From the UHGV virus genome UHGV-0869939: a DNA stretch of 25,864 bases. One strand, given 5' to 3'. Position numbers and translations under genes: made by a program. This DNA is from a virus. Under the pieces are notes generated by a model that was not told where the DNA came from, searched no databases, and saw only the letters and a list, made by a program, of their open reading frames with translations. Position 1 is the first letter of the stretch. Each line of letters starts with the position of its first letter. Below are positions 1 to 25,864 of this stretch, piece after piece.

Positions 1-1
1 A

Positions 2-100
2 GACTGGGACTCATATAAACCACACCGTGGCACACGTGGTTATGAGGTCCGACTAAGTAGTCAGGCCATTGCGCAACACGTTCTGAAAAAACAACGCTGA
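2..100 (+). CDS. Partial CDS, 3' end of an upstream gene of unknown product
   Basis: Frame open from the window edge to TGA at 98-100; no start in window. Confidence 0.25.
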   Translation, partial: DWDSYKPHRGTRGYEVRLSSQAIAQHVLKKQR

Positions 101-105
101 ATTTA

Positions 106-702
106 TTGCTGCCTTTAAATCCAAAGGTTGCTTTGGCACTACTGGATGAACGGGAAAGAAACCAGCAATACATAAAACGCCGCGATCAGGAGAACGAGGA
201 TATTGCGCTTACGGTTGGGAGGCTGCGCGTTGAGCTTGAGGAAGTAAAACAACACGCTGAAGAATTATCCGAAACCAAGGCTGTTCGTAACCAATGGCGG
301 CCAGATATTTGCCCAATAACCGGACGTGCATTTTTCATGTGGATTGAGCATCCAACATTGGGAAATGTGCCGACATATGGTGGCCCATTAGATAGTTACA
401 CCATTCCAACAAAGGACGGTGACGGTGAGTTTTCATGTGAGCGTTACGATCATGATTTTGGCGGTTGGGTAGAAAGCGAATGTCTTGGGTTATATCTGAT
501 TGATGATAGAGAACAATGCAGGGTCTACGAACTGGAGGAACGCGTTAAGGAACTGGATGCTCGGGAAATATCGCTCCCGGAACGTAGCAGCATGCTTCAT
601 CGAACAGATTTTAACGAGGATTACCACACGGTAATGGCATACAAAGTTTCTGAAGTCATCGCTGCAATCCGCGCTGCTGGTATTCGCATCAAAGGAGACT
701 GA
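106..702 (+). CDS. Ead/Ea22-like prophage early protein
   Basis: 198 aa; N-terminal charged coiled-coil-like stretch (LDERERNQQYIKRRDQENEDIALTVGRLRVELEEVKQHAEEL) and Cys/Asp-rich C-terminal half as I recall for Ead/Ea22-like proteins. Start is TTG at 106, with an in-frame stop at 98-100, so the start is uncertain. Confidence 0.45.
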   Translation: MLPLNPKVALALLDERERNQQYIKRRDQENEDIALTVGRLRVELEEVKQHAEELSETKAVRNQWRPDICPITGRAFFMWIEHPTLGNVPTYGGPLDSYTIPTKDGDGEFSCERYDHDFGGWVESECLGLYLIDDREQCRVYELEERVKELDAREISLPERSSMLHRTDFNEDYHTVMAYKVSEVIAAIRAAGIRIKGD

Positions 703-703
703 T

Positions 704-901
704 ATGGATAAAAACACCACTGCTTACTGGAATCTGTCACTTGATACCGAATGCCCAAAATGCGGTCACAATTTCGATCTGCTTTGTGATGCTGATTTCT
801 GGGAGTTTTCTGGAGCTAAACAGGCATGTGAAGAAATAAAAGGTTACGAAACATGCTGTCCAGAATGTAACCATGAATTTAAAACAGATTTCGTGTATTG
901 A
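704..901 (+). CDS. Small zinc-ribbon protein
   Basis: 65 aa with CPKCGH ... CCPECNH cysteine pairs; AAAGGAG RBS at 693-697; ATG placed just after the upstream stop. Confidence 0.5.
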   Translation: MDKNTTAYWNLSLDTECPKCGHNFDLLCDADFWEFSGAKQACEEIKGYETCCPECNHEFKTDFVY

Positions 902-911
902 GGCATAACAA

Positions 912-1799
912 ATGACCACTATTACCAGAGAACAGGCACAGAAAATTATTGAAGCAGCCGATGAGGTTATTAGTGCGCTGGCCGGAACTAACGAGGATGT
1001 TCACCCTGGTAGCGATAACATGCTACGCCTGTGGGATGACCTGAATGACCGTTACGCGCCGCCGGAAGTTGTGCGTGAGCTGGCGCGTATCGTGCTGGCA
1101 TCGCTGGAAGCAGAACCAGTTGCTTATATTTTCAAACATCCGGCCGGGAAATTATTCTGGGCTTTAACGGATGAAAGCAATAAAGAGCAAGCGGACGTTA
1201 TTCCTGTTTATGCTGCCGCGCCTGCGTCGGTTGTGCCGGATGATGCATCAGGGTCGCTTGCTTATGCTTACAAAGAGCTTACGCCTGAGATTATGCGCGG
1301 TCATATCGCTGTATTCGAGCGATATGGAATAGCCCCAAACGATAGCATTACCACAATTCAGGCACTGCGAATCGCGCTGGATGGCATAGAGCGGAGCGAC
1401 GCCATGCTTCATGGTGCCGAACCTGTAAGCCAAACTTACAAGTTGCCTCCCCTGTCATCCAACGAAGTAAACGACGCGGCATGGAAATTACACAACATGC
1501 TGACTGAACACGTCCCGCTAAATGGGCGTCAGTTCAACAATCTGAAAGGTTGCTTCTATGAGGCATTAAAGGTCGCAATGCGCAACTATCCGGTAACTCC
1601 GGATGGTTGGATAAGCTGTAGTGAGCAAATGCCCGCTCAAGATGATTGGATTTTAATTTATTCAAAGCACGGCGAGTATATGGCAGGACAGGTACAAGGG
1701 GAATACGTGGAGTTGAGCGACGGCACTTTATCGTGGTTAGGGAACGCCTTGTACTGGATGCCGCTACCAGAACCGCCGCAGGAGGTTAACCGTGGCTAA
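912..1799 (+). CDS. Early-region protein with C-terminal DUF551-like domain
   Basis: 295 aa; the C-terminal block WISCSEQMPAQDDWILIYSKHGEYMAGQ...LSWLGNALYWMPLPEPP matches the DUF551 pattern common in lambdoid early regions (from memory). Confidence 0.55.
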   Translation: MTTITREQAQKIIEAADEVISALAGTNEDVHPGSDNMLRLWDDLNDRYAPPEVVRELARIVLASLEAEPVAYIFKHPAGKLFWALTDESNKEQADVIPVYAAAPASVVPDDASGSLAYAYKELTPEIMRGHIAVFERYGIAPNDSITTIQALRIALDGIERSDAMLHGAEPVSQTYKLPPLSSNEVNDAAWKLHNMLTEHVPLNGRQFNNLKGCFYEALKVAMRNYPVTPDGWISCSEQMPAQDDWILIYSKHGEYMAGQVQGEYVELSDGTLSWLGNALYWMPLPEPPQEVNRG

Positions 1800-2073
1800 C
1801 CTTCAACTTGCCGTCAAAGGTGAATACTTCGATGCCATGATTCGCGGAGAGAAAACGGAAGAGTATCGCCTGTGTAATGACTATTGGAATAAGCGCCTCG
1901 TTAACCGTAAGTATGACCGCCTGATTATCACAAAGGGATATCCGAAGCGCGACGATTCCAGCCGCAGAATTGATGTTCCGTATGACGGATATGAAATAAA
2001 GACAATCACACATCCCCACTTCGGCGATAAACCGGTAAAGGTGTTCGCGATAAAGGTGAATATTGATGGCTAA
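1792..2073 (+). CDS. ASCH/PUA-like domain protein
   Basis: 93 aa; GxKxxExR signature (GEKTEEYR) typical of ASCH domains; GGAGG RBS at 1777-1781; GTG start overlaps the upstream stop (GTGGCTAA). Confidence 0.45.
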   Translation: MANLQLAVKGEYFDAMIRGEKTEEYRLCNDYWNKRLVNRKYDRLIITKGYPKRDDSSRRIDVPYDGYEIKTITHPHFGDKPVKVFAIKVNIDG

Positions 2074-2404
2074 ATCAGCAGCAGAGCGCAAAGCCGCTCA
2101 GAGAGCCAGACAAGCTGAATCCGGTGTGCGTAAGCTGGAAATTGTGCTTGATGCTCAGGAAATTGAAATGCTGGAGCGTAACTGTGCCACACGTCGCCCC
2201 GGGCGTGCGCCTTACGAATTTGGTGAGTATATAGCGTTACTGATCCGCCAGGATGATGCGCGCGTGCACGGGCGTATAAAATCGATCAGCAGAAAACGTT
2301 GCGGTAAGTGCGGCGAGAGAGTTCCTGTGAATTCATGCCCGTGTAATGGTGACTCGCAATGCTGGGTGACTAAAGGCTGGCATGAAACGAAATTAATATT
2401 GTGA
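2066..2404 (+). CDS. Hypothetical protein with Cys-rich C-terminus (possible zinc binding)
   Basis: ATG at 2066 preceded by AGGTGA and overlapping the upstream stop (ATGGCTAA); C-terminal CGKCGERVPVNSCPCNGDSQCW. Family not recognised. Confidence 0.45.
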   Translation: MAKSAAERKAAQRARQAESGVRKLEIVLDAQEIEMLERNCATRRPGRAPYEFGEYIALLIRQDDARVHGRIKSISRKRCGKCGERVPVNSCPCNGDSQCWVTKGWHETKLIL

Positions 2405-24853: not shown

Positions 24854-24899
24854 TGGCATGGTGCAAAACGTGCTGGGACGAGCACAAAGCGAAACGATA

Positions 24900-24925
24900 G
24901 GCCGCTCTTGCGGCCTTTTCTTTAT
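24900..24925. terminator. Bidirectional rho-independent terminator
   Basis: GGCCGC-TCTT-GCGGCC followed by TTTTCTTTAT; lies between convergent genes. Confidence 0.6.
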
Positions 24926-25179
24926 GTGGTTTGTTTTCGTAGTTGTTCGGCACAATAGTCGAGATGTGTTTGCAGATCCTGCATAGACATCTGTGAGCTG
25001 GTGACGTAGTTAATCAGTGCAGTCAGTTCGGCAAGTGGGCCATCGACATTAAATCCATCCTTATCGAGATCCCGGAGTAATTTCATCAAGTGCGATCCCT
25101 CCACCAGTGACCTGACGCCTCCCGGCGTGTGAATCCTTTCGGTAAATCCGTCTTCCAGTGGATAGTGATACTGCTGCAT
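24922..25179 (-). CDS. Small protein homologous to the antirepressor C-terminal domain; candidate SOS-induced antirepressor or immunity modulator
   Basis: 85 aa from the ATG at 25179 with GGAGAAG RBS; the upstream in-frame ATGs at 25302/25281 would place the LexA box and the operator inside the coding sequence; aligns with residues about 130-218 of the 23117..23773 product. Confidence 0.55.
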   Translation of the reverse strand: MQQYHYPLEDGFTERIHTPGGVRSLVEGSHLMKLLRDLDKDGFNVDGPLAELTALINYVTSSQMSMQDLQTHLDYCAEQLRKQTT

Positions 25180-25198
25180 CTTATCTTCTCCATGCAAT

Positions 25199-25218
25199 AA
25201 CTGTATATTTATACAGTA
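25199..25218. promoter_or_regulatory. LexA (SOS) box
   Basis: AACTGTATATTTATACAGTA, CTGT-N8-ACAG core, near-identical to the enterobacterial consensus TACTGTATATATATACAGTA; 20-40 bp upstream of the ATG at 25179, overlapping a TATAAAT -10-like element. Confidence 0.7.
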
Positions 25219-25255
25219 ACAAATAATTTGTTTGCTATCCAGCACGTTTTGCAAA

Positions 25256-25270
25256 TTACCCGAAAGGTAA
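25256..25270. promoter_or_regulatory. TTACC-N5-GGTAA palindromic site (copy 6 of 6)
   Basis: TTACCCGAAAGGTAA between the divergent small antirepressor-domain gene and the tail-fibre gene, about 105 bp upstream of the tail-fibre ATG. Confidence 0.6.
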
Positions 25271-25374
25271 TATCTATTCATATTCACAGTCTTTCTATCC
25301 ATATATGGTTTTTTGGGTAATAGAATAACCAGATATGCGGCGCAACGGGTGCTGCGACTATCTGGAGATTTAAC

Positions 25375-25686
25375 ATGACGGTCTCAACCGAAGTTGACCA
25401 CAACGAATACACAGGTAACGGCGTTACGACATCATTTCCGTATACCTTCCGTATTTTCAAAAAATCCGACCTGGTTGTTCAGGTGTCTGACCTTAACGGT
25501 AACGTTACAAAACTAGTGCTGGATGCTGGTTATACGGTAACAGGGGCGGGAACTTATAGTGGCGGTGCAGTGGTTCTTCCGTCGCCGCTTGCTGCTGGCT
25601 GGCGAATCACGATAGAGCGTGTGCTTGATGTGGTGCAGGAGACTGATCTTCGCAATCAGGGAAAATTTTTCCCCGAAGTTCCATGA
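25375..25686 (+). CDS. Tail fibre protein, N-terminal domain (T7 gp17-like), frame interrupted at 25684
   Basis: YTGNGVTTSFPYTFRIFKKSDLVVQV ... GWRITIERVLDVVQETDL parallels the T7 gp17 N-terminus (LDGSNRDFNIPFEYLARKFVVV ... TTIELRRVTSTTDRL); GGAG RBS; stop after 103 codons while the homology continues in the +1 frame. Confidence 0.65.
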   Translation: MTVSTEVDHNEYTGNGVTTSFPYTFRIFKKSDLVVQVSDLNGNVTKLVLDAGYTVTGAGTYSGGAVVLPSPLAAGWRITIERVLDVVQETDLRNQGKFFPEVP

Positions 25687-25864
25687 GGATGCATTTGACT
25701 ACCTGACGATGCTGATCCAGCGATGTTTTGGGTGGTTCAGACGTGCATTGATGAAACCATCTTTGCTTGCAAAATATTACGATGCAAAGCAAAACAGAAT
25801 ATCTAACCTTGCCGATCCATACACAGTGCGTGGTCGGCGTCTCTCAAGGCACACAGGGGATAGG
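25679..25864 (+). pseudogene. Continuation of the tail-fibre reading frame (+1 relative to 25375..25686), open to the window end
   Basis: 62 codons with no stop and no RBS-supported start; DAKQNRISNLADP resembles the T7 gp17 DARGRRIVNLANA segment. Either a frameshift (pseudogene or sequencing error) or a split tail-fibre gene. Confidence 0.4.

What the first reader, a model, noticed from the sequence alone, without database searches (positions are those of the whole stretch)
1..25864. Temperate-style early genes fused to a T7-like virion module
Ead/Ea22-like, DUF551-like and ASCH-like early genes, an antirepressor and a LexA box are temperate lambdoid hallmarks. The portal (Gln-rich C-terminus), gp11/gp12-like tail tube, gp13- to gp16-like internal virion proteins and gp17-like tail-fibre N-terminus follow T7 order, with terminase moved to the front. 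No T7-type RNA polymerase promoter consensus was seen in the window.
Basis: partly seen in the sequence, partly recalled or inferred. Interest (0 to 1): 0.5.

Follow-up and report, generated by a model that had tools for sequence, protein, structure and literature searches.

The report
Ordinary epsilon15/phiV10-like E. coli prophage
The window is the late-early and virion-gene half of a common, already described type of temperate short-tailed E. coli phage (the epsilon15/phiV10 group), whose tail and DNA-ejection proteins are known distant relatives of those of phage T7, so it is ordinary, not a new hybrid.

Summary
The listed genes are nearly all present. The window is 97% identical in DNA to known epsilon15/phiV10-type temperate podoviruses. 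The best match is the isolated phage EC.W1-9. It also matches prophages next to guaA in over 100 complete E. coli genomes.

The T7 relationship is real but remote, and it covers only the portal, tail and ejection proteins:
- The portal belongs to the same Pfam family as T7 gp8.
- The gp11-like AlphaFold model matches the T7 gp11 structure.
- The gp12-like profile matches T7 gp12 in a central domain.
- The gp13-, gp14- and gp16-like proteins share PHROG or Pfam families with T7.

BLASTP finds no significant match to any T7 protein. The capsid shell, cement and staple proteins, the protease/scaffold and the terminase belong to other families. The terminase was therefore not "moved to the front"; it is a different terminase. 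This picture has already been published (Hardies et al. 2016).

The LexA box is a near-consensus site at 25199-25218. It controls an 85-aa homologue of the phage SPC32H Ant anti-repressor, which is a described SOS switch.

Side observations:
- a Tad2-family anti-Thoeris gene
- an IsrK/C4 RNA module upstream of a second antirepressor
- a non-epsilon15 ejection-protein cassette
- a 1-nt frameshift in the tailspike gene

Verdict: already known, low interest.

The parts
106..702 (+). Ead/Ea22-like protein. It is a partial match and probably a truncated or recombined copy.
   Evidence: PF13935, E 2.7e-14, profile positions 65-121 only. 67% identity to epsilon15 gp45 over 51 aa.
704..901 (+). 65-aa Cys-rich small protein of unknown function
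   Evidence: phrog_4173, 8.8e-28. Only sub-threshold Pfam zinc-hook hits.
912..1799 (+). DUF551-domain protein (epsilon15 gp47-like C-terminus)
   Evidence: PF04448, 3.6e-10. 86% identity to the epsilon15 gp47 C-terminus.
1792..2073 (+). 93-aa protein, weakly ASCH-like
   Evidence: phrog_625, 7.5e-51. Pfam ASCH scores only 14.9 bits, below its cut-off. NCBI calls a same-sized protein at this position of an E. coli prophage ASCH-domain.
2063..2404 (+). epsilon15 gp49-like Zn-finger regulator. It sits just upstream of a terminator and the terminase genes. A role as late-gene regulator is inferred.
   Evidence: 77% identity to epsilon15 gp49. phrog_536 'transcriptional regulator'. Terminator-like hairpin at 2454-2471.
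2526..3122 (+). Terminase small subunit, not T7-type. The start is uncertain; the ORF is open from 2445.
   Evidence: PF03592 Terminase_2, 3e-29. 89% identity to epsilon15 gp1.
3119..4594 (+). Terminase large subunit, not T7-type
   Evidence: 95% identity to epsilon15 gp2. phrog_2 TerL, 9.9e-53. No hit to the T7 terminase Pfam families.
4685..4981 (-). Tad2-family (DUF2829) protein: candidate anti-Thoeris sponge or AcrIIA7-like moron
   Evidence: PF11195, 3.1e-24. PDB Tad2/AcrIIA7 chains 8kbi, 9eib, 8v3e and 8sme, E 3e-15 to 1e-11. Present in only 2 of the 80 closest IMG/VR loci.
5180..5256 (-). tRNA-Arg (anticodon TCT)
   Evidence: ARAGORN. Rfam tRNA, 73.3 bits. Also found in phiV10 and in E. 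coli prophages.
5684..5890 (+). epsilon15 gp3-like small protein
   Evidence: 88% identity to epsilon15 gp3.
5905..7584 (+). Portal protein of the T7 gp8 Pfam family, with a Gln-rich C-terminus
   Evidence: PF12236, 1e-187. T7 gp8 is in the same family. Cross-hits between phrog_332 and phrog_449. PDB 8ck0, 2.9e-178.
7581..7877 (+). Bbp19-like protein (epsilon15 gp5)
   Evidence: PF25181, 2.8e-17.
7880..8575 (+). Protease/scaffold-like protein (epsilon15 gp6)
   Evidence: phrog_458, 2.6e-110. 73% identity to epsilon15 gp6.
8584..9576 (+). Major capsid protein of the epsilon15 GP7 family, not T7 gp10-type
   Evidence: PF20911, 4.5e-149. T7 gp10 is in PF21703.
9628..10065 (+). Bbp16-type capsid cement protein
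   Evidence: PF21190, 1.7e-47.
10076..10411 (+). epsilon15 gp9-like protein
   Evidence: phrog_590, 1.3e-60. 39% identity to epsilon15 gp9.
10462..10785 (+). gp10-type capsid staple protein
   Evidence: PF21628, 7.3e-52.
10785..11390 (+). Tail adaptor (T7 gp11 fold; epsilon15 gp11)
   Evidence: 85% identity to epsilon15 gp11. PDB 8ck1_E connector, 3.9e-26. AF2 model with pLDDT 80.6 matches T7 gp11 7box_M: E 6.3e-7, TM 0.61. No Pfam Tube hit.
11390..13861 (+). Tail nozzle (epsilon15 gp12; distant T7 gp12 homologue in the central domain)
   Evidence: 88% identity to epsilon15 gp12. PDB 8ck1_A 'Tail Nozzle', 4.8e-217. hhalign against the T7 gp12 family: 78%, E 1.8e-5, residues 314-569 against 336-600. 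No Pfam Phage_nozzle hit.
13861..14325 (+). Internal virion protein A (T7 gp13-like)
   Evidence: phrog_308 is shared with T7 gp13. hhalign 84%, E 7.5e-6. Pfam PF11090 is sub-threshold.
14325..14900 (+). Internal virion protein B (T7 gp14 family)
   Evidence: PF24072 T7_gp14, 33.7 bits against a cut-off of 27.
14900..17647 (+). 915-aa internal virion protein at the gp15 position, with a muralytic domain at about residues 243-399
   Evidence: phrog_1044 and phrog_992. The N-terminal 520 aa are 44% identical to epsilon15 gp15. PDB endolysin 7q47 and Gp29 9vvp match residues 247-399. No link to T7 gp15.
17647..21036 (+). 1129-aa internal virion protein D (T7 gp16-type, without the SLT domain)
   Evidence: phrog_342, 9.4e-235, covering profile positions 192-1227. 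T7 gp16 is in the same PHROG. No similarity to epsilon15 gp16 or gp17. The same gene is present in the isolated phage EC.W1-9.
21038..21889 (+). 283-aa low-GC protein of unknown function (moron), with a hydrophobic, signal-peptide-like N-terminus
   Evidence: Translation. phrog_6118 only. GC about 0.40. No PDB or PADLOC hit.
21919..22152 (-). Small protein with a hydrophobic N-terminal segment (moron). The start is probably internal, giving about 53 aa.
   Evidence: phrog_3117 and phrog_14503.
22162..22674 (-). YafO-like putative toxin
   Evidence: Pfam YafO is sub-threshold at 19.7 bits. NCBI names the homologues 'YafO family toxin'.
22661..22987 (-). 108-aa ORF overlapping the start of the YafO-like gene. 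A role as partner or antitoxin is inferred.
   Evidence: phrog_5933. The two ORFs overlap by 14 nt.
23117..23773 (-). AntA-type antirepressor whose C-terminal 75 aa resemble the small Ant
   Evidence: PF08346, 4.2e-26. 37% identity to epsilon15 gp19 over residues 136-210. Alignment with BRO-N variants.
23823..23907 (-). C4-type antisense RNA
   Evidence: Rfam RF01695, 61.2 bits against a gathering score of 45. Conserved in phiV10, EC.W1-9 and E. coli prophages.
23932..24008 (-). IsrK-type sRNA
   Evidence: Rfam RF01394, 67.7 bits against a gathering score of 50. Conserved in relatives.
24173..24853 (+). 226-aa protein of unknown function with a hydrophobic N-terminus and a C-terminal Cys-rich region
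   Evidence: phrog_6762.
24922..25179 (-). 85-aa anti-repressor Ant (SPC32H Ant / epsilon15 gp19 homologue)
   Evidence: PDB 5d50_E 'Anti-repressor protein', 1.3e-47. 85% identity to epsilon15 gp19.
25199..25218 (.). LexA (SOS) box 22 nt upstream of the Ant start codon
   Evidence: 2 mismatches to the 20-mer consensus; none of 100 shuffles matched. Conserved upstream of the homologous gene in epsilon15 and L002.
25375..25864 (+). Tailspike/tail-fibre gene, T7 gp17-type N-terminal adaptor domain. It is interrupted by a 1-nt insertion at about 25681 and runs off the window.
   Evidence: phrog_1640 and others, which T7 gp17 also hits. 78% identity to the epsilon15 gp20 N-terminus. Extra C relative to E. 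coli 4/0. Pfam PF03906 is sub-threshold.

Best explanation
The window is about two thirds of an epsilon15/phiV10-like (Uetakevirus-type) temperate podovirus prophage of E. coli. It runs from the end of the lambdoid-style accessory ('nin-like') genes to the first 160 codons of the tailspike gene.

As read from the sequence and from established knowledge of this phage group, it works as follows. A small gp49-like regulator and a terminator precede one long rightward late operon. The operon encodes, in order:
- a non-T7 terminase (TerS and TerL)
- a T7-family portal
- an epsilon15/BPP-1-type head (protease/scaffold, GP7 capsid, Bbp16 cement, gp10 staple)
- a T7-fold adaptor (gp11-like) and nozzle (gp12-like)
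- four internal core/ejection proteins: gp13-like, gp14-like, a 915-aa muralytic protein and a 1129-aa gp16-type protein

Induction is by antirepression. LexA binds the box at 25199-25218 and holds down an 85-aa Ant. After DNA damage Ant is made and disassembles the non-cleavable Rep repressor, as shown for the relative SPC32H. A second, larger antirepressor lies behind IsrK and C4 RNAs.

What is shown and what is inferred:
- Gene identities and homologies are shown by the tools.
- The regulatory logic is inferred from homology to studied relatives.
- The late-operon transcription model is inferred.
For: - DNA identity: 97% to isolated phages EC.W1-9 (81% of the query), TL-2011b, phiV10, vB_EcoP_ZX5 and the O157 typing phages; 77-81% to epsilon15 and Tyrion.
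- Abundance: 110 complete E. coli genomes hold at least 80% of it, and 485 IMG/VR stretches encode the nozzle.
- Location: in strain CUVET20-PYO2 the same element is a roughly 40-kb prophage between guaA and yfgI with an integrase. This matches the published guaA attB of vB_EcoP_ZX5 (PMC9782041).
- Synteny: 21 of 30 window proteins have an epsilon15 homologue, in the same gene order.
- Family assignments.
- Links to T7. These agree with the published HMM-HMM analysis of the epsilon15 group (PMC4819975).
- Ant matches PDB 5d50_E at 1.3e-47. The LexA box is conserved in position.
- IsrK and C4 RNAs.
Against: - The window is only part of the element. The integrase, repressor, lysis genes and att sites were not seen in this copy.
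- Formal genus membership is not established. Identity times coverage to phiV10 is about 50% over the window, because the ejection-protein cassette and the moron slots differ.
- The tailspike reading frame is broken by one base, so this particular copy may not give infectious particles.
- No experiment on this sequence exists here.
Confidence: 0.93

Rival explanations
1. A new chimera: a lambdoid temperate phage that recently acquired the structural module of a T7-like (Autographiviridae) phage. This takes the first reader's title literally.
For: The gene order portal, adaptor, nozzle, IVP-A to -D, fibre adaptor is the T7 order. Several of these proteins fall in T7 Pfam or PHROG families.
Against: - BLASTP finds no significant match between any window protein and its T7 counterpart. 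The links appear only with profiles or structure (13% identity for gp11).
- The head shell and terminase are not T7-type.
- The whole arrangement is 97% identical to long-known phages and is present in epsilon15, sequenced two decades ago.
- The deep relation is already published (PMC4819975).
Confidence: 0.03
2. This copy is a defective prophage remnant that cannot make infectious virions.
For: - The tailspike gene has a +1 frameshift after about codon 101, relative to an otherwise identical E. coli sequence.
- The Ea22-like gene matches only part of its family profile.
Against: - All other structural ORFs, from the terminase to the 1129-aa protein, are full length when compared with epsilon15 or EC.W1-9.
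- The single extra C could be a sequencing error.
- Near-identical modules occur in phages isolated as plaques (EC.W1-9). A relative is spontaneously induced (PMC9782041).
Confidence: 0.15
3. A P22-like podovirus. P22 is also temperate, with an antirepressor and gp7/gp20/gp16 ejection proteins.
For: An antirepressor region is present. The terminase is of the P22/Sf6-like rather than the T7 kind, according to the epsilon15 RefSeq notes. Ejection proteins follow the tail hub.
Against: - The portal is in PF12236 (T7 gp8 family), and the capsid is in the epsilon15 GP7 family with Bbp16 cement and a gp10 staple.
- The best DNA matches covering the virion genes are all epsilon15/phiV10-type phages.
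Confidence: 0.02

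Closest known systems
Escherichia phages phiV10, TL-2011b, vB_EcoP_ZX5, phiv142-3 and EC.W1-9; Salmonella phage epsilon15 (genus Uetakevirus and unclassified relatives)
   Same: Same gene order and mostly the same genes from Ea22/DUF551 through the terminase, portal, head, gp11-gp14, Ant and the tailspike N-terminus. DNA identity is 97% (E. coli phages) or 78% (epsilon15) over the shared parts. The relatives integrate at guaA (PMC9782041).
   Different: - The two large ejection proteins (915 and 1129 aa) and the 283-aa gene replace gp15-gp17 of epsilon15 and phiV10. This cassette is shared only with EC.W1-9 and some Klebsiella phages.
- The head shell proteins are only 36-43% identical to epsilon15.
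- The moron slots differ: Tad2, the YafO-like gene, and an AntA rather than a BRO-N N-terminal domain.
Salmonella phage SPC32H Rep/Ant antirepression system (PDB 5D50; Kim & Ryu 2013, cited in PMC7380047; described in PMC9638917)
   Same: The 85-aa protein matches the Ant chain at E 1.3e-47. It is preceded by a near-consensus LexA box.
   Different: The cognate repressor lies outside the window. Neither LexA binding nor the Rep-Ant interaction was tested for this phage.
Phage T7 (Autographiviridae) portal, tail and internal core: gp8, gp11, gp12, gp13, gp14, gp16, gp17 N-terminus
   Same: Same order. Same Pfam family for the portal and gp14. Same PHROG for gp13 and gp16. Same fold for gp11. 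The central domain of gp12 matches.
   Different: - No pairwise sequence similarity.
- No phage RNA polymerase promoters.
- Different capsid, scaffold/protease and terminase families.
- The muralytic domain sits in the gp15-position protein, not in gp16.
- Temperate lifestyle.
Bordetella phage BPP-1 and phage Carin-1 (PDB 8CK0/8CK1), Legionella LME-1 (PDB 9EFK)
   Same: Bbp16 cement and Bbp19 families. The portal, connector and nozzle match the Carin-1 chains at E 2.9e-178, 3.9e-26 and 4.8e-217. The LME-1 adaptor and nozzle also match.
   Different: Different hosts and different early regions. The relatedness is at protein level only.
Gifsy-1 isrK-orf45-anrP module / phage P1 immI (c4-icd-ant)
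   Same: IsrK and C4 RNA family matches sit directly upstream of an antirepressor gene on the same strand (PMC4825925).
   Different: The antirepressor carries a C-terminal domain related to SPC32H Ant. Regulation was not tested here.

Membership tests
epsilon15/phiV10-like temperate podoviruses (Uetakevirus-type) | Synteny and homology of the morphogenesis genes with epsilon15 gp1-gp14, gp19 and the gp20 N-terminus | tested here: met
   BLASTP identities of 36-95% in the same gene order. 97% DNA identity to phiV10 over the shared parts.
epsilon15/phiV10-like temperate podoviruses (Uetakevirus-type) | Formal genus criterion: at least about 70% nucleotide identity over the whole genome to a member. 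The criterion is recalled from my own knowledge of ICTV practice. | tested here: inconclusive
   Over the window, phiV10 covers 51% at 97.2% and epsilon15 covers 32% at 77.8%. The rest of the genome was not seen. The closest phage, EC.W1-9, is itself unclassified.
epsilon15/phiV10-like temperate podoviruses (Uetakevirus-type) | Temperate: integrase, repressor, integration at guaA | not testable with these tools
   These lie outside the window. They are present in the near-identical prophage of CUVET20-PYO2 and in vB_EcoP_ZX5 (PMC9782041).
Autographiviridae (T7-like phages) | Phage-encoded single-subunit RNA polymerase and its promoters | tested here: not met
   No T7 promoter consensus with up to 3 mismatches. 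No RNA polymerase gene is annotated in the complete genome of the relative epsilon15.
Autographiviridae (T7-like phages) | T7-type capsid (PF21703), scaffold gp9 and terminase (PF22530) | tested here: not met
   The window capsid is in PF20911 and TerS is in PF03592. TerL has no T7 terminase domain.
T7 gp8 portal family (Pfam PF12236) | Score above the Pfam gathering cut-off | tested here: met
   624.9 bits against a cut-off of 27. T7 gp8 scores 379.4 bits.
T7 gp11 adaptor (Pfam PF17212 Tube) | Sequence-profile membership | tested here: not met
   No hit even at E up to 10. The fold nevertheless matches T7 gp11 (7box_M: E 6.3e-7, TM 0.61, 13% identity). It therefore works like gp11 but is not a Pfam member.
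T7 gp12 nozzle (Pfam PF25675) | Sequence-profile membership | tested here: not met
   No Pfam hit. Profile-profile comparison finds the central domain only (78%, E 1.8e-5). It is homologous to the solved Carin-1 'Tail Nozzle'. The AF2 model was too poor to use (pLDDT 41).
T7 gp14 family (Pfam PF24072) | Score above the gathering cut-off | tested here: met
   33.7 bits against a cut-off of 27, covering 1-167 of the protein and 1-182 of the 187-position profile.
T7 gp16 (internal virion protein D) | Shared profile family over the non-lytic body, plus an N-terminal SLT transglycosylase domain | tested here: inconclusive
   The body is met: phrog_342, 9.4e-235, over profile positions 192-1227, and T7 gp16 is in the same PHROG. 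The SLT domain is absent. Shallow-profile hhalign was weak (E 0.01).
T7 gp15 (internal virion protein C) | Detectable homology to gp15 | tested here: not met
   No BLASTP, PHROG or hhalign link. The assignment rests on position and size only, as also reported for epsilon15 in PMC4819975.
LexA-controlled SPC32H-type Ant | Ant homologue with a LexA box in its promoter region | tested here: met
   5d50_E at 1.3e-47. The box has 2 mismatches to the consensus and lies 22 nt upstream of the ATG. It is conserved in epsilon15 and L002.
Tad2 anti-Thoeris family (PF11195) | Sequence membership; binding of gcADPR signals | tested here: inconclusive
   Sequence membership is met: 85.7 bits against a cut-off of 25, and solved Tad2 chains match at about E 1e-14. 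Ligand binding and anti-defence activity cannot be tested here.

The most novel reading that the evidence does not exclude
E. coli epsilon15/phiV10-like prophages may carry two antirepressors that use the same Rep-binding domain but listen to different signals.
- The 85-aa Ant is under LexA control and responds to DNA damage.
- A larger protein has a swappable N-terminal domain (AntA here, BRO-N in relatives) fused to a 37%-identical Ant-like C-terminal domain. It sits behind IsrK and C4 RNAs, which would give RNA or Hfq control.

Induction would then integrate SOS-dependent and SOS-independent inputs on one repressor. I found no description of the shared domain in the papers I read. The vB_EcoP_ZX5 study showed only that overexpressing the BRO-N protein favours the lytic cycle.
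Probability: 0.35. Interest if true: 0.35.

Novelty: already known. Interest (0 to 1): 0.12.

Why it matters
It matters little as a discovery. The 'temperate phage with a T7-like tail and core' architecture is that of epsilon15 and phiV10, which is described genomically, structurally and in evolutionary analyses.

The annotation does have practical value. PGAP calls most of these virion genes 'hypothetical', and they can now be named: adaptor, nozzle, and internal virion proteins A, B and D. The window also shows how the moron slots of this very common E. coli prophage carry counter-defence and toxin-like cargo (Tad2, YafO-like), and how the ejection-protein cassette is exchanged between relatives.

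Tried and rejected
- BLASTP of all 30 window proteins against T7 gp8-gp19 gave nothing significant.
- hhalign with shallow family alignments, built from 80 near-identical IMG/VR loci and 19 T7-like loci, was under-powered. Only gp13 gave a credible hit. The portal/gp8 and 1129/gp16 pairs aligned over long stretches but with E of 0.004-0.01.
- The AlphaFold model of the nozzle, built from an alignment at 82% identity or more, failed (pLDDT 41) and was not used for fold search. A deeper alignment from the 50%-cluster library was used for hhalign instead.
- NCBIfam and PADLOC gave no hits for any queried protein.
- PDB sequence searches found nothing for TerL, the 1129-aa protein or the 283-aa protein.
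- The other two CTGT-N8-ACAG matches (5049 and 9591) have GC-rich spacers and no suitably placed gene start. I treat them as chance.
- A permissive Rfam search of the 1.1-kb region around the tRNA found nothing further.
- The 283-aa ORF at 21038 is not the gp17-like fibre gene. It is an unrelated low-GC gene.
- A paper search for PDB code 8CK1 found nothing, and the SPC32H primary paper is not held.

Full report
**What is in the window**

ORF listing and translation show a compact, almost entirely rightward gene array. It runs from an Ea22-like ORF at 106 to a 283-aa ORF ending at 21889. A mixed-orientation, lower-GC region follows at 21.9-25.3 kb, and then the start of a tail-fibre or tailspike gene at 25375. 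One tRNA-Arg(TCT) lies at 5180-5256 on the minus strand.

**Identity of the element**

Megablast against phage records gives 97% identity to several phages:
- Escherichia phage EC.W1-9, covering 81% of the query
- TL-2011b
- HEMP4
- phiv142-3
- O157 typing phages 9 and 10
- phiV10
- vB_EcoP_ZX5

Identity is 77-81% to Enterobacter phage Tyrion, some Klebsiella prophage-derived phages and Salmonella phage epsilon15. phiV10 and epsilon15 are classified in the genus Uetakevirus.

In complete E. coli genomes, 110 hold at least 80% of the window. In strain CUVET20-PYO2 the same element is a roughly 40-kb prophage with a tyrosine integrase beside guaA and lysis genes at the far end. This matches the experimentally mapped guaA attachment site of vB_EcoP_ZX5 (PMC9782041).

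IMG/VR holds 485 stretches encoding the same nozzle protein. The element is therefore common and already sampled many times.

Confirmed:
- Ea22-like (PF13935) and DUF551 (PF04448)
- AntA antirepressor (PF08346)
- The portal (PF12236, E 1e-187) with its Gln run near the C-terminus
- No T7 promoter consensus within three mismatches

Weak:
- 'ASCH-like' is a sub-threshold Pfam hit of 14.9 bits. NCBI does use the ASCH name for a same-sized protein at the same position of an E. coli prophage.

The LexA box is real. AACTGTATATTTATACAGTA at 25199-25218 has two mismatches to the consensus, and no shuffle gave a match. It lies 22 nt upstream of an 85-aa minus-strand gene. A box also lies just upstream of the homologous gene in epsilon15 and in the CUVET20-PYO2 prophage, at the same 22-nt spacing.

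That 85-aa protein matches the 'Anti-repressor protein' chain of PDB 5D50 at E 1.3e-47. 5D50 is the Rep-Ant complex of the epsilon15-like phage SPC32H, according to the epsilon15 RefSeq note and PMC9638917. The primary description is Kim & Ryu 2013, cited in PMC7380047.

The box is therefore not a generic 'lambdoid hallmark'. It is the operator of a described LexA-Ant-Rep antirepression switch.

**How T7-like is the virion module?**

Pairwise BLASTP of every window protein against T7 gp8-gp19 finds no significant match to the corresponding T7 protein. The relation appears only with profiles and structure.

| Window protein | Link to T7 |
|---|---|
| Portal | Both pass Pfam PF12236 and cross-hit each other's PHROGs |
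| 154-aa protein | Shares phrog_308 with T7 gp13; hhalign 84%, E 7.5e-6 |
| 191-aa protein | Passes the Pfam T7_gp14 cut-off |
| 1129-aa protein | Matches phrog_342 (the PHROG of T7 gp16) at 9.4e-235 over profile positions 192-1227, which is everything except the N-terminal SLT domain |
| Tailspike N-terminus | Shares phrog_1640, 2710, 27277 and 8460 with T7 gp17 |
| gp11-like protein | No Pfam Tube hit, but the AlphaFold model (pLDDT 80.6) matches T7 gp11 (7box_M): Foldseek E 6.3e-7, TM 0.61, 13% identity. The Carin-1 connector (8ck1_E) and the LME-1 adaptor rank higher |
| gp12-like protein | Homologous to the solved Carin-1 'Tail Nozzle' (E 4.8e-217). A deep profile of 128 sequences from a library search matches the T7 gp12 family at 78% probability, E 1.8e-5, residues 314-569 against 336-600. 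Five other T7 proteins score 0.5% or less |
| 915-aa protein (gp15 position) | No detectable link to T7 gp15 |

The 915-aa protein carries a muralytic domain at about residues 243-399.

These results reproduce what Hardies et al. (PMC4819975) published for epsilon15:
- Tubular tail A and B and internal virion proteins A, B and D are deep homologues of the T7 proteins.
- The nozzle similarity is confined to T7 gp12 residues 354-556.
- Internal virion protein C could not be linked.
- The terminase and capsid group with other lineages.

**What is not T7-like**

- The capsid is the epsilon15 GP7 family (PF20911). It comes with Bbp16 cement, a gp10 staple and a Bbp19 protein, whereas T7 gp10 is in PF21703.
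- TerS is Terminase_2, and TerL has no T7 terminase domain. The terminase at the front is a different terminase, not a relocated T7 one.
- The complete epsilon15 genome has no RNA polymerase gene.

**Differences from epsilon15 and phiV10**

The 915-aa, 1129-aa and 283-aa genes form a cassette that differs from gp15-gp17 of epsilon15 and phiV10. Only the first 520 residues of the 915-aa protein resemble epsilon15 gp15 (44% identity), and the 1129-aa protein has no epsilon15 counterpart.

The same cassette occurs at 98.3% identity in the isolated phage EC.W1-9 and at 82% in two Klebsiella phages. It also occurs in 14 of the 80 closest IMG/VR loci. The head shell proteins are only 36-43% identical to epsilon15, while the portal and tail proteins are 81-88% identical. 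This is ordinary mosaicism.

**Side observations**

1. Tad2-family gene. The 98-aa minus-strand gene at 4685-4981 belongs to the Tad2 (DUF2829) family: PF11195 at 3e-24, and solved Tad2/AcrIIA7 chains at E about 1e-14. Only 2 of the 80 closest loci carry it.
2. IsrK/C4 RNA module. Rfam finds IsrK (23932-24008) and a C4 antisense RNA (23823-23907) directly upstream of the AntA gene. The pair is conserved in phiV10, EC.W1-9 and E. coli prophages but absent from epsilon15. It recalls the Gifsy-1 isrK-orf45-anrP module (PMC4825925).
3. Shared Ant-like domain. The large antirepressors have either an AntA or a BRO-N N-terminal domain. All share a C-terminal domain of about 75 aa that is 37% identical to the small Ant. 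The phiV10 copy is cut short within that domain.
4. Possible toxin pair. A YafO-like ORF and an overlapping upstream ORF lie at 22162-22987.
5. Tailspike frameshift. The tailspike gene has one extra C at about 25681 relative to an otherwise identical E. coli 4/0 sequence, which shifts the frame after about codon 101. This is either a real inactivating mutation or a sequencing error.

**Verdict**

The element is an ordinary member of a described and abundant phage group. Novelty: already known. Interest: low.

Noticed in passing
window 4685-4981 (-): A Tad2-family (DUF2829) protein, a candidate anti-Thoeris sponge or AcrIIA7-like inhibitor. It sits in a variable slot between the terminase and tRNA-Arg. 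Only 2 of the 80 closest IMG/VR loci carry it; the others have a different gene there.
   Followed up: partly
window 23823-24008 (-), upstream of 23117-23773 (-): IsrK sRNA and C4 antisense RNA matches, both above the Rfam gathering scores, lie directly upstream of the AntA-type antirepressor. The pair is conserved in phiV10, EC.W1-9 and E. coli prophages and absent from epsilon15. It resembles the Gifsy-1 isrK-orf45-anrP and P1 immI modules.
   Followed up: partly
window 23117-23773 (-) residues 136-210, and 24922-25179 (-): The large antirepressor has a C-terminal domain of about 75 aa that is 37% identical to the small LexA-controlled Ant. In relatives the N-terminal domain is BRO-N instead of AntA while the C-terminal domain stays nearly identical. 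In phiV10 that domain is cut short.
   Followed up: partly
window 25676-25690: A single extra C relative to an otherwise identical E. coli 4/0 sequence frameshifts the tailspike gene after about codon 101. It is either an inactivating mutation or a sequencing error. Beyond about 25820 the two sequences diverge, which marks the boundary of the receptor-binding module.
   Followed up: partly
window 14900-21889: The ejection-protein cassette (915 aa with a muralytic domain, 1129 aa of gp16 type without SLT, and a 283-aa low-GC protein with a signal-peptide-like N-terminus) replaces gp15-gp17/gp18 of epsilon15 and phiV10. It is shared with EC.W1-9 and two Klebsiella phages.
   Followed up: partly
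window 22162-22987 (-): A YafO-like putative toxin gene (Pfam sub-threshold; NCBI names the homologues YafO family toxin) has an upstream 108-aa ORF overlapping it by 14 nt. This may be a toxin-antitoxin pair carried as a moron.
   Followed up: no
window 2401-2471: A promoter-like site and a strong terminator-like hairpin (2454-2471) lie between the gp49-like Zn-finger regulator and the terminase genes. The layout is reminiscent of a Q-type late antitermination arrangement. It also argues that TerS starts near 2526 rather than at the upstream TTG.
   Followed up: no
window 5049-5064 and 9591-9606: Two further CTGT-N8-ACAG matches. Both recur in the CUVET20-PYO2 prophage, but their spacers are GC-rich and no gene start is placed to be controlled by them. 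They are probably not LexA sites.
   Followed up: partly
window 8584-10785 versus 5905-7584 and 10785-13861: The head shell proteins (capsid, cement, gp9, staple) are only 36-43% identical to epsilon15, whereas the portal, adaptor and nozzle are 81-88% identical. The head shell and the portal/tail have therefore diverged or been exchanged separately.
   Followed up: no
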